Shown here piece by piece: positions 7,881-8,714 of a DNA stretch of 64,000 nucleotides. Within the stretch, counting starts at the first letter, position 1. Each line of letters starts with the position of its first letter. The stretch lies in assembly GCF_009914755.1 (NCBI RefSeq), contig NC_060930.1; one strand, written 5' to 3'. This stretch comes from the human T2T-CHM13v2.0 reference genome, Homo sapiens. The position numbers and the translations under genes were made by a program. A model generated the notes under the pieces. That model searched no databases. It was given only the letters and a program-made list of their open reading frames with translations, and was not told where the DNA came from.

Positions 7881-8405
7881 ATGCCGCATGGTCACCCCGA
7901 TCCCAACACCTCCCTGTGATGGGGCGGGGGTGCCAAGGCGGAGGGTGTACAGGGAAAGTTTCTGAGCCCTAATGAGTAGCACGGAATCTAGCTGGGGAGA
8001 CATGCCACACACAGCTGTCAACACATGGCAAGGAACTCTCTCAGAGCACACAGCCACGTTCCTGAGAGAAAGGGTTCCCCAGTCCAGAACAACCCTGAGC
8101 TAGGTAGGACTAAGCCAGGAAGGCTTCTCGGAGGAGGTGAGTGACCATGGTCTCCTTGCAGAGACCATAGTGTGAGAAGTTCCAGAGAGAAGGAGGAGGG
8201 GGAAGGGCGTTGGAGGCCAGAGCCTAGATTCTGAGGCAGGACCTTGGGGCGGGTGGTTTGCACCCTCCTCCACCCTGCCTGACCCCGCCCACTTGCCCGG
8301 GACGCCGGCGCCGCAGGGGCTGTGAGCGGTGGGTGGCCCCGGAGACGGAGCTGTCGAGTCTGTGCCTGACACCTCTTTTCCCTCCACTTTCTTGGTCTCT
8401 TTCAG

Positions 8406-8714
8406 TTGGAGGAGGACAGACTCTCGGGGCACTCCCTCCCGCGGTACAGCCCCCTGCGACGACTGGCGTCCTCCGTGTTCTCCTCCTCCACGCTGGAGAC
8501 GGAGCATTACCCTCACCCCGGCGGCGGCGGCTCCTCGGGCTCCTCCGGTTCCCTCATTCAGCGCAGCCGCTCGGCTGAGAGCAGCCCTGTGCGGGCGCCC
8601 CACCGGCGCCACGCGCCCCTCGCTGCTGGCAACCACAGACTCATGCCCTCGGTGCTCCGCATCTCGCGGTCCCAGCTGCAGCAGGTGTGGGCCCGGTTCA
8701 CCCACAAGACCTAG
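8406..8714 (+). CDS. TTBK1: Candidate alternative terminal coding exon of TTBK1 (LEEDRLSGHSLPRYSP...QQVWARFTHKT*)
   Basis: A branch-like cctgac and a long polypyrimidine tract end in tttcag at 8405. Phase 0 matches the upstream exon. The 102 open codons are CpG-rich and GC3-biased and end at TAG 8712-8714. Confidence 0.75.
   Translation: MEEDRLSGHSLPRYSPLRRLASSVFSSSTLETEHYPHPGGGGSSGSSGSLIQRSRSAESSPVRAPHRRHAPLAAGNHRLMPSVLRISRSQLQQVWARFTHKT

What the first reader, a model, noticed from the sequence alone, without database searches (positions are those of the whole stretch)
8290..8714. In-frame alternative last exon of TTBK1 that replaces the poly-Glu/SxIP tail
Seen: a strong acceptor at 8405, phase 0 matching the exon ending at 2119, and 102 CpG-rich codons inside a 19-kb intron. 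The peptide is Ser/Arg-rich (RSRSAESSP) and ends in a likely amphipathic helix (SRSQLQQVWARF). Established: the canonical TTBK tail uses SxIP motifs to bind EB proteins at microtubule plus ends. Inference: a ~764-aa isoform (assuming the remembered 1321-aa reference) keeps the kinase but loses both SxIP motifs and the poly-Glu tract, acting as a localisation switch for a tau/TDP-43 kinase. It may already exist as a predicted model but is not the isoform usually studied.
Basis: partly seen in the sequence, partly recalled or inferred. Interest (0 to 1): 0.7.

Follow-up and report, generated by a model that had tools for sequence, protein, structure and literature searches.

The report
Known, deeply conserved short-tail TTBK1 isoform exon
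This is a real and already catalogued alternative end of the brain kinase gene TTBK1, conserved from sharks to humans, that gives a shorter kinase lacking the parts that hold the usual form at growing microtubule ends, and its role has not been studied.

Summary
An AG acceptor at 8404-8405 opens an exon at 8406. The exon is in phase with the exon ending at 2119 and reads 102 codons to TAG at 8712-8714. It is not new. The databases hold a human 764-aa TTBK1 protein, a human cDNA-derived 287-aa protein carrying the 2119/8406 junction, and a RefSeq predicted isoform X5; all end in this peptide. The hub table lists exon 8406-15440. The peptide is conserved across jawed vertebrates: 81% identity in Xenopus and about 70% in sharks. 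It is better conserved than the canonical C-terminal exons. It has no counterpart elsewhere in the human genome, TTBK2 included. The 764-aa form has 0 SxIP motifs; both SRIP motifs and the 39-residue acidic tract lie in exon 21507-23092. I add one point: the exon is composite. An internal donor at 8684|8685 makes it an in-frame 93-codon cassette in rat, bat, bird and lizard models. The "localisation switch" follows logically but is untested. I found no paper on this isoform.

The parts
1558..2119 (+). Upstream constitutive TTBK1 coding exon. It ends on a codon boundary (phase 0) with donor CAG|GTAAGG at 2119|2120.
   Evidence: 1559-2119 translates without a stop and ends ...PTGPQRQ; donor sequence. 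Hub annotation gives the exon bounds.
8366..8405 (+). 3' splice site region: CTGAC branch-point-like site (8366-8370), pyrimidine tract, and AG at 8404-8405.
   Evidence: 85% pyrimidines in the 20 nt scored. It is the only one of 1636 intronic AGs that combines such a tract with at least 102 open codons.
8406..8714 (+). Coding part of the alternative exon: 102 codons plus TAG (8712-8714). It forms the C-terminal tail of the 764-aa isoform (residues 663-764).
   Evidence: 100% identical to the C-termini of human P0006, P0008 and P0009. Conserved to Xenopus (81%), coelacanth (77%), sharks (about 70%) and teleosts (45-65%).
8454..8516 (+). Invariant block 1, tail residues 17-37 (LRRLASSVFSSSTLETEHYPH). 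It contains a hydrophobic-x-R-x-x-S site (L17, R19, S22).
   Evidence: invariant columns L17 R18 R19 L20 S22 F25 S26 S27 S28 T29 L30 E31 T32 E33 Y35 P36 H37 in 11 sequences. R681, L682, S684, F687, S689, E693, E695 and P698 invariant in 48 full-length orthologues; motif scan.
8556..8588 (+). Invariant block 2, tail residues 51-61 (IQRSRSAESSP). It contains a second hydrophobic-x-R-x-x-S site (I51, R53, S56) and an R-x-x-x-S-x-P pattern (R55-P61).
   Evidence: Q714 R715 S716 R717 S718 A719 E720 S721 S722 P723 invariant in 48 orthologues; motif scan.
8667..8705 (+). Predicted C-terminal alpha-helix, tail residues 88-100 (RSQLQQVWARFTH).
   Evidence: helix 88-100, block pLDDT 75-84, in a tail that otherwise scores 46-58; helix 750-762 is the highest-confidence stretch of an otherwise poor full-length model; the hydrophobic positions are kept in teleosts (QIQQMLAKLMNKT).
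8682..8690 (+). Internal 5' splice site CAG|GTGTGG (exon/intron boundary 8684|8685). Its use makes 8406-8684 an in-frame 93-codon cassette joined to 21507.
   Evidence: it is one of four phase-0 GTs in the coding part and the only one preceded by CAG; rat P0020 reads ...[22 protein letters not shown], which is the start of the human exon at 21507; the same junction occurs in P0021, P0022 and P0032-P0035.
8685..8711 (+). Nine codons (VWARFTHKT) translated only when the internal donor is not used. They mark the terminal (short-isoform) reading.
   Evidence: 9/9 identical in wombat, cobra and Xenopus, 6/9 in a shark-like protein; conservative replacements in teleosts, with the stop at the same place give or take 1-4 codons.
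8715..15440 (+). Long 3' UTR of the terminal-exon form, with ATTAAA at 15420-15425, 20 nt before the annotated end.
   Evidence: The hub annotation lists exon 8406-15440; the only canonical hexamers in 8715-15600 are AATAAA at 14590 and ATTAAA at 15420.
21507..23092 (+). Canonical next exon, skipped in the short isoform. It holds the 39-residue acidic tract (21717-21833) and both SRIP motifs (22680-22691, 22980-22991).
   Evidence: The residue arithmetic 662+528+1+130 = 1321 matches the reference length.

Best explanation
Window 8406-8714 is the coding part of a genuine, already annotated composite alternative exon of TTBK1 that is under purifying selection.

Shown: the donor at 2119|2120 can splice to the acceptor at 8405|8406 instead of to 21506|21507. 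If the transcript is then cleaved and polyadenylated (annotated end 15440, ATTAAA at 15420), the mRNA encodes a 764-aa protein. This protein has the kinase domain, the conserved middle region and a 102-residue tail. The tail is mostly disordered and Ser/Arg-rich, with two invariant blocks and a C-terminal helix. The protein lacks the acidic tract, both SRIP motifs and the segment that resembles TTBK2.

Shown in other species' models, inferred for human: if the internal donor at 8684|8685 is used instead, the first 93 codons become an in-frame cassette within the long protein.

Inferred: without SxIP motifs the short form cannot be recruited by EB proteins to growing microtubule ends. It is therefore a differently localised, and probably differently regulated, pool of the same kinase.

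Inferred with low confidence: the two invariant hydrophobic-x-R-x-x-S sites (S22 and S56 of the tail, residues 684 and 718 of the isoform) are phospho-regulated docking sites for a basophilic kinase, possibly followed by 14-3-3 binding. The terminal helix would be a partner-binding element.
For: - Sequence: acceptor, phase, 102 codons and stop. Only 1 of 1636 intronic AGs has both the tract and the open frame. CpG observed/expected falls from 0.81 in the coding part to 0.13 just after the stop.
- Records: 114 proteins at E<=0.01 among 1606 candidates; every one that carries a name is called TTBK1, tau-tubulin kinase or an unnamed kinase. They include human P0008 (764 aa), P0006 (cDNA FLJ22032, 287 aa) and P0009 (RefSeq X5, 851 aa).
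- Class counts: by my blastp classification of all 114, 81 end with this tail, 24 continue beyond it and 9 are partial or unclear.
- Conservation, human against Xenopus: tail 81%, against 74% for the preceding exon and 77% for the middle region. Human against zebra finch: tail 75%, against 59% and 46% for the two canonical C-terminal exons. Human against Salvelinus: 59% against 39% and 26%.
- The nine codons after the internal donor, and the stop position, are conserved at protein level.
- An exhaustive phmmer scan of 1.84 billion representatives gave only 15 hits at E<=0.001. Five of them (P0031, P0041, P0053, P0055, P0083) are among the hits; that library carries no names.
- SxIP count: 0 in P0008 and 2 in exon 21507-23092.
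- Literature passages: both TTBKs carry two SxIP motifs in the C-terminal tail, and full-length TTBK1 co-localises with EB1 (PMC4834103).
- Helix prediction.
Against: - No read-level expression data could be consulted, so the abundance of the isoform in human brain is unknown. The only human transcript evidence seen is indirect: protein records derived from a cDNA and from annotation pipelines.
- Most orthologous proteins are automatic gene models, so the 81/24/9 split reflects annotation practice as well as biology.
- The localisation consequence was not tested.
- The phospho-docking idea rests on motif definitions recalled from memory.
- The hydrophobic moment of the terminal helix is moderate (0.52-0.58). 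The peptide's maximum, 0.80, lies elsewhere and is reached by 186 of 2000 shuffles.
- The full-length AlphaFold2 model was poor (mean pLDDT 38.4).
- Human RefSeq, as given in the hub table, lists no 8406-8684 cassette, so cassette use in human is unproven.
Confidence: 0.85

Rival explanations
1. The exon's selected role is as an in-frame 93-codon cassette in the long, SxIP-containing protein. On this view the terminal, read-through form (764 aa) is a by-product of incomplete splicing or premature polyadenylation, with little function of its own.
For: Models in rat (P0020, 1400 aa), two bats (P0021, P0022), three birds (P0032-P0034) and Anolis (P0035) continue directly from ...SQLQQ into the homologue of the exon at 21507. 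The human donor CAG|GTGTGG at 8684|8685 is intact and in phase 0. Both invariant blocks lie inside the cassette part.
Against: The nine codons after the donor are 9/9 identical from human to Xenopus and change conservatively in teleosts. The stop position is kept. Teleost proteins read QQM at the site where tetrapods have the donor, so there is no GT there, yet they still end with the tail. 81 of 114 hits end with the tail. All three human records seen are terminal, and the hub table lists only 8406-15440 for human.
Confidence: 0.12
2. The open frame is a chance product of a GC- and CpG-rich regulatory element within the intron, such as an intragenic CpG island or enhancer. On this view the annotated models are artefacts.
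For: Several other frames on both strands are also open across the region, for example 314 aa on the minus strand and 330 aa in another plus frame. G+C is 0.70 and CpG observed/expected is 0.81.
Against: Protein-level conservation of 81% to frog and about 70% to sharks, with length differences that keep the frame and a conserved stop. CpG observed/expected drops from 0.81 to 0.13 at the stop codon. A human cDNA-derived protein carries the junction. The other open frames match no Pfam family (0 families for each of 3 frames).
Confidence: 0.02

Closest known systems
Annotated human TTBK1 short-isoform records: P0008 (UniRef A0A994J709, 764 aa), P0009 (RefSeq 'isoform X5', 851 aa) and P0006 (cDNA FLJ22032 / Q9H6N8, 287 aa). 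Names are as printed.
   Same: They are the same thing. All three end in the identical 102-residue peptide encoded by 8406-8711 and carry the PQRQ|LEEDR junction.
   Different: Nothing differs at this exon. P0009 has an extra 87-residue insertion upstream, encoded outside the window. P0006 is an N-terminally partial reading that starts at the Met in exon 1558-2119.
Canonical TTBK1 (NM_032538.3, 1321 aa)
   Same: Identical through residue 662: kinase domain, middle region and exon 1558-2119.
   Different: The canonical form skips 8406 and continues with exons 21507-23092 and 23787 onwards. These carry the 39-residue acidic tract, two SRIP motifs and the segment 1053-1117 that resembles TTBK2 (PMC4407412 passage). 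The short form replaces 659 residues with 102.
TTBK2, the paralogue, and its SCA11 truncations
   Same: TTBK2 has a homologous kinase domain and two SxIP motifs in its C-terminal tail (PMC4834103 passage). According to a passage of PMC4009424, disease truncations at about residue 450 remove the tail, reduce kinase activity and shift localisation. This is a precedent that tail loss re-localises a TTBK.
   Different: No counterpart of the 102-residue tail was found anywhere else in the human genome. Searches with the human peptide and with a divergent fish peptide hit only this locus (E 7e-60 and 1.5e-20); the next-best hits had E>=0.36 and none lay on contig 15. The TTBK1 short form is a natural, conserved isoform with its own conserved tail, not a truncation.
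Composite terminal exons and intronic polyadenylation isoforms in general (a class recalled from general knowledge)
   Same: An internal exon whose 5' splice site competes with a downstream poly(A) site, giving either a cassette or a terminal exon that ends in a few extra codons and a stop.
   Different: Here both readings are in frame and both are conserved. The poly(A) site lies 6.7 kb beyond the donor.

Membership tests
Alternative or composite terminal exon of a protein-coding gene | A 3' splice site in phase with the upstream exon | tested here: met
   AG at 8404-8405 after an 85% pyrimidine tract. The upstream exon ends in phase 0.
Alternative or composite terminal exon of a protein-coding gene | Its own in-frame stop codon and a downstream poly(A) signal | tested here: met
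   TAG at 8712-8714. ATTAAA at 15420, 20 nt before the annotated exon end 15440 (hub table). Actual cleavage-site use could not be examined.
Alternative or composite terminal exon of a protein-coding gene | Transcript evidence for the junction | tested here: met
   The human cDNA-derived protein P0006 (FLJ22032) reads across PQRQ|LEEDR. This evidence is indirect, since the cDNA itself was not seen. Read counts are not testable with these tools.
Alternative or composite terminal exon of a protein-coding gene | An internal 5' splice site that allows cassette use (the 'composite' property) | tested here: inconclusive
   CAG|GTGTGG at 8684|8685 is in phase 0. The equivalent junction is used in 7 orthologue models, P0020-22 and P0032-35. 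No human cassette record was seen.
Protein-coding sequence under purifying selection (TTBK1 orthologue group) | Amino-acid conservation across distant species, with frame-preserving length changes and a conserved stop | tested here: met
   Identity of 81% in Xenopus, 77% in coelacanth, 68-74% in sharks and 45-65% in teleosts. This exceeds that of neighbouring non-catalytic exons. Codon-level dN/dS was not testable because no orthologous DNA was available.
SxIP-type microtubule plus-end tracking protein (EB-binding) | At least one [ST]x[IL]P motif in a basic, Ser-rich disordered region | tested here: not met
   There are 0 matches in the 764-aa isoform P0008 and 0 in the tail. There are 2 (both SRIP) in exon 21507-23092. 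The short isoform therefore fails the defining sequence feature that the long isoform meets. EB binding itself is not testable here.
Protein kinase (CK1 group, TTBK) | A complete kinase domain retained in the short isoform | tested here: met
   Pfam Pkinase at residues 35-272 of P0008, E 6e-33, 114.8 bits against a cut-off of 31.7.
Known protein domain family for the 102-residue tail | A match to a curated family above its cut-off | tested here: not met
   The only Pfam match is FANCA_interact at 17.5 bits, below its cut-off of 27, E 0.0063. I treat it as compositional.

The most novel reading that the evidence does not exclude
The short form would be an anciently fixed, perhaps principal, functional form of TTBK1 rather than a minor variant. 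Its tail is the best conserved non-catalytic segment of the protein, is specific to TTBK1 and has no TTBK2 counterpart. It would act as a phospho-regulated docking module: two invariant hydrophobic-x-R-x-x-S sites 34 residues apart, suited to a bidentate 14-3-3-type reader, plus a terminal helix. This would send the kinase to a compartment other than microtubule plus ends. Together with the annotated transcription start at 15559, only 119 nt past the short form's poly(A) end, the human locus would then be effectively bipartite. It would produce a kinase-with-short-tail product and a kinase-less product carrying the acidic tract and SxIP motifs. The choice between them might be influenced by the two sense-strand (GT)23-24 arrays that flank the exon; as RNA these are (UG)n, the motif recalled as bound by TDP-43, which is itself a TTBK1 substrate.
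Probability: 0.12. Interest if true: 0.65.

Novelty: already known. Interest (0 to 1): 0.3.

Why it matters
TTBK1 is a drug target for tauopathies and TDP-43 disease. Almost all of the work I saw treats it as a single 1321-aa protein. The review passages I read name only that form and a 621-aa isoform 2 (PMC4009424; PMC9582958; PMC7138307).

A conserved isoform that keeps the kinase but drops the EB-binding motifs has three practical consequences. C-terminal antibodies, C-terminal peptides in targeted proteomics and 3'-UTR probes would all miss part of the kinase pool. Total 'TTBK1 level' measurements in disease could be confounded by isoform shifts. The sub-cellular site of tau and TDP-43 phosphorylation could depend on the isoform.

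The exon itself is not a discovery, because it is already annotated. What this work adds is the degree of conservation, its specificity to TTBK1 and its composite nature.

Tried and rejected
- **Paralogue search.** Whole-genome six-frame searches with the human tail and with a divergent fish tail, P0123, found only the locus itself. A profile search of the same genome was not accepted by the tool.
- **Domain families.** No Pfam family reached its cut-off for the tail or for three other open frames on either strand.
- **Full-length structure.** The AlphaFold2 model built with 48 orthologues failed overall: mean pLDDT 38.4, with even the kinase domain poor. I use only its local helix call, which the tail-only model confirms.
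- **Complex prediction.** Kinase domain 20-320 against tail 663-764, testing the idea that the tail acts in cis on the kinase. The verdict was 'no answer' with score 0.00. It is neither evidence for nor against binding.
- **Amphipathicity.** The hydrophobic-moment test does not single out the terminal helix.
- **Literature on the isoform.** None of these searches found a paper describing the 764-aa isoform or this exon:
  - 'TTBK1'+'isoform'+'alternative splicing': 80 papers, 20 listed.
  - 'TTBK1'+'short isoform': 4 papers.
  - FLJ22032 / KIAA1855 / Q5TCY1: 10 papers, 9 listed, none containing FLJ22032.
  - 'TTBK1'+'polyadenylation': 36 papers, 15 listed.
  - Six phrases such as 'TTBK1 transcript' and 'TTBK1 isoform': 3 papers.
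  - Five peptide strings from the tail: 0 papers.
  - 'TTBK1'+'cryptic exon': 29 papers, 12 listed.

  For these searches I read only the listings and the passages cited. Supplements, where proteomic or splicing tables would sit, were not searched.

Full report
**1. What is in the sequence**

Positions 8366-8405 read CTGAC, then a pyrimidine-rich run, then TTTCAG. The exon that starts at 8406 translates to 102 residues and a TAG at 8712-8714. It begins LEEDRLSGHSLPRYSPLRRLASSVFSSSTLETEHYPHP..., continues through ...IQRSRSAESSPVR... and ends ...SRSQLQQVWARFTHKT.

The upstream exon 1558-2119 is open in the frame that ends exactly at 2119. The junction is therefore phase 0 and reads PQRQ|LEEDR. 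The donor at 2119|2120 is CAG|GTAAGG.

The coding stretch has G+C 0.70 and CpG observed/expected 0.81. The 300 nt after the stop have 0.13, and the flanking intron has 0.18-0.23.

I tested the intron's 1636 AG dinucleotides in 2150-21480. Fifteen have at least 85% pyrimidines in the 20 nt upstream. Eighty-two are followed by at least 102 open codons. Only the one at 8406 has both. The region is GC-rich and other frames on both strands are also open, so the open frame alone is weak evidence.

**2. It is a known, transcribed, annotated exon**

I searched for proteins longer than the peptide among 5.8 billion sequences. This gave 114 proteins at E<=0.01 among 1606 candidates. Three of them are human:
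- P0008, 764 aa (name in the output: UniRef A0A994J709).
- P0006, 287 aa ('cDNA: FLJ22032 fis, clone HEP08743', Q9H6N8).
- P0009, 851 aa ('tau-tubulin kinase 1 isoform X5').

Their sequences all read ...PQRQLEEDRLSG... and end ...VWARFTHKT. The hub annotation also lists an exon 8406-15440 among the other transcripts. ATTAAA lies at 15420, 20 nt before that end, and it is one of only two canonical hexamers in 8715-15600.

**3. Conservation**

Identity of the 102 residues to orthologues:

| Group | Identity |
|---|---|
| Placental mammals | 95-100% |
| Wombat | 94% |
| Birds, snakes, lizards, a frog | 81-84% |
| Xenopus tropicalis | 81% |
| Coelacanth | 77% |
| Three sharks | 69-73% |
| Teleosts | 45-65% |

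An exhaustive phmmer pass over 1.84 billion representative proteins found only 15 hits at E<=0.001. Five of them (P0031, P0041, P0053, P0055, P0083) are among the hits. That library carries no names.

In global pairwise alignments the tail is as well or better conserved than the other non-catalytic parts:
- Human against Xenopus: tail 81%, preceding exon 74%, middle region 77%.
- Human against zebra finch: tail 75%, the two canonical C-terminal exons 59% and 46%.
- Human against Anolis: 78%, against 56% and 50%.
- Human against Salvelinus: 59%, against 39% and 26%.

Two blocks are invariant or nearly so. They are LRRLASxVFSSSTLETExYPH (tail residues 17-37) and IQRSRSAESSP (residues 51-61). No Pfam family covers the tail.

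No second copy exists in the human genome. The human tail and a divergent fish tail each hit only this locus (E 7e-60 and 1.5e-20). All other hits had E>=0.36 and none lay on contig 15, where, from recall, TTBK2 lies. The search scores only the best candidates, so a very weak TTBK2 relic cannot be excluded.

**4. The exon is composite**

I classified all 114 hits by where the match ends. Eighty-one end with the tail, 24 continue beyond it, and 9 are partial or unclear. Some of the 24 are evident mis-models.

Seven models continue directly from ...SRSQLQQ into the homologue of the human exon at 21507: rat P0020, bats P0021 and P0022, birds P0032-P0034 and Anolis P0035. In rat the junction reads [19 protein letters not shown], and the human exon at 21507 starts [15 protein letters not shown]. 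In human DNA this boundary is CAG|GTGTGG at 8684|8685. It is in phase 0 and is the only phase-0 GT in the coding part that is preceded by CAG. So 8406-8684 can be an in-frame 93-codon cassette. No human cassette record was seen.

The nine codons that are read only when the donor is ignored are 9/9 identical in wombat, cobra and Xenopus, and 6/9 in a shark-like protein. In teleosts they change conservatively to MLAKLMNKT, with the stop kept within 1-4 codons. This points to selection on the terminal protein form, not only on a splice site.

**5. What the short protein has and lacks**

It keeps the kinase domain (Pfam Pkinase, residues 35-272, E 6e-33).

It has no [ST]x[IL]P motif. Exon 21507-23092 has two, both SRIP, at canonical residues 1054 and 1154. 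[quoted passage not shown]

The first SRIP falls in the segment 1053-1117 that a passage of PMC4407412 gives as the only non-catalytic similarity to TTBK2. Passages of PMC4834103 state that both TTBKs have two SxIP motifs in the C-terminal tail and that full-length TTBK1 co-localises with EB1. Loss of EB-dependent plus-end tracking in the short form is therefore a sound inference, but it remains untested.

**6. The tail itself**

AlphaFold2 on the tail with 11 sequences gives a mostly low-confidence chain (block pLDDT 46-58) with a helix at residues 88-100 (pLDDT 75-84). The full-length model was poor (mean pLDDT 38.4), but its best stretch is the same helix, at 750-762.

The hydrophobic moment of that helix is moderate (0.52-0.58, similar in frog, shark and fish) and not exceptional.

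Both invariant blocks contain a hydrophobic-x-R-x-x-S pattern (L17/R19/S22 and I51/R53/S56). The second block also fits R-x-x-x-S-x-P. Reading these as sites for basophilic kinases or as 14-3-3 sites rests on recalled consensus motifs and is a hypothesis only.

**7. Literature**

Seven searches found no paper on this isoform. The TTBK review PMC4009424 mentions only the 1321-aa form and a 621-aa isoform 2, in the passages I read. Supplements were not searched.

**8. Verdict**

The feature is already annotated, so it is not novel as an object.
- Conservation across jawed vertebrates, exceeding that of the canonical tail.
- Specificity to TTBK1.
- The composite (terminal or cassette) nature of the exon.
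- A formal check that the short form has no SxIP motif.

The function of the tail and the isoform's abundance remain open.

Noticed in passing
window 5768-5815 and 9178-9223 (+): Two perfect (GT)24 and (GT)23 arrays on the sense strand flank the alternative exon, 2.6 kb before its acceptor and 464 nt after its stop. As RNA they are (UG)n, which I recall as the preferred TDP-43 binding motif, and TTBK1 phosphorylates TDP-43. GT microsatellites are common, so this may be coincidence.
   Followed up: partly
window 15000-16614 (+): The other-transcript exons 15559-16584 and 15559-16614 have no AG before 15559, so they are first exons. They start only 119 nt after the short form's annotated poly(A) end at 15440. 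CpG observed/expected is 0.8-1.25 in 15000-15399. In-frame ATGs lie before both donors and read into 21507 in phase 0. A kinase-less protein carrying only the acidic and SxIP tail is therefore conceivable.
   Followed up: partly
window 1733-1774 (+), residues 534-547 of the 764-aa isoform: The block [24 protein letters not shown] in the constitutive exon is invariant in 48 vertebrate orthologues. An acidic run followed by W-x-x-I resembles an LC3-interacting (LIR) motif, by a definition I recall. It is present in both isoforms.
   Followed up: no
window 8100-9044 (-): A 314-aa stop-to-stop open frame lies antisense to the exon. It matches no Pfam family. I take it to be a by-product of the high G+C content and of the constraint on the sense frame.
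   Followed up: partly
protein P0009 (human RefSeq isoform X5), residues about 417-503: This predicted human isoform carries an 87-residue insertion (VTAARAKGVGG...SPLLQ) that is absent from the 764-aa form. It looks like a retained intron or an extra exon upstream of the window.
   Followed up: no
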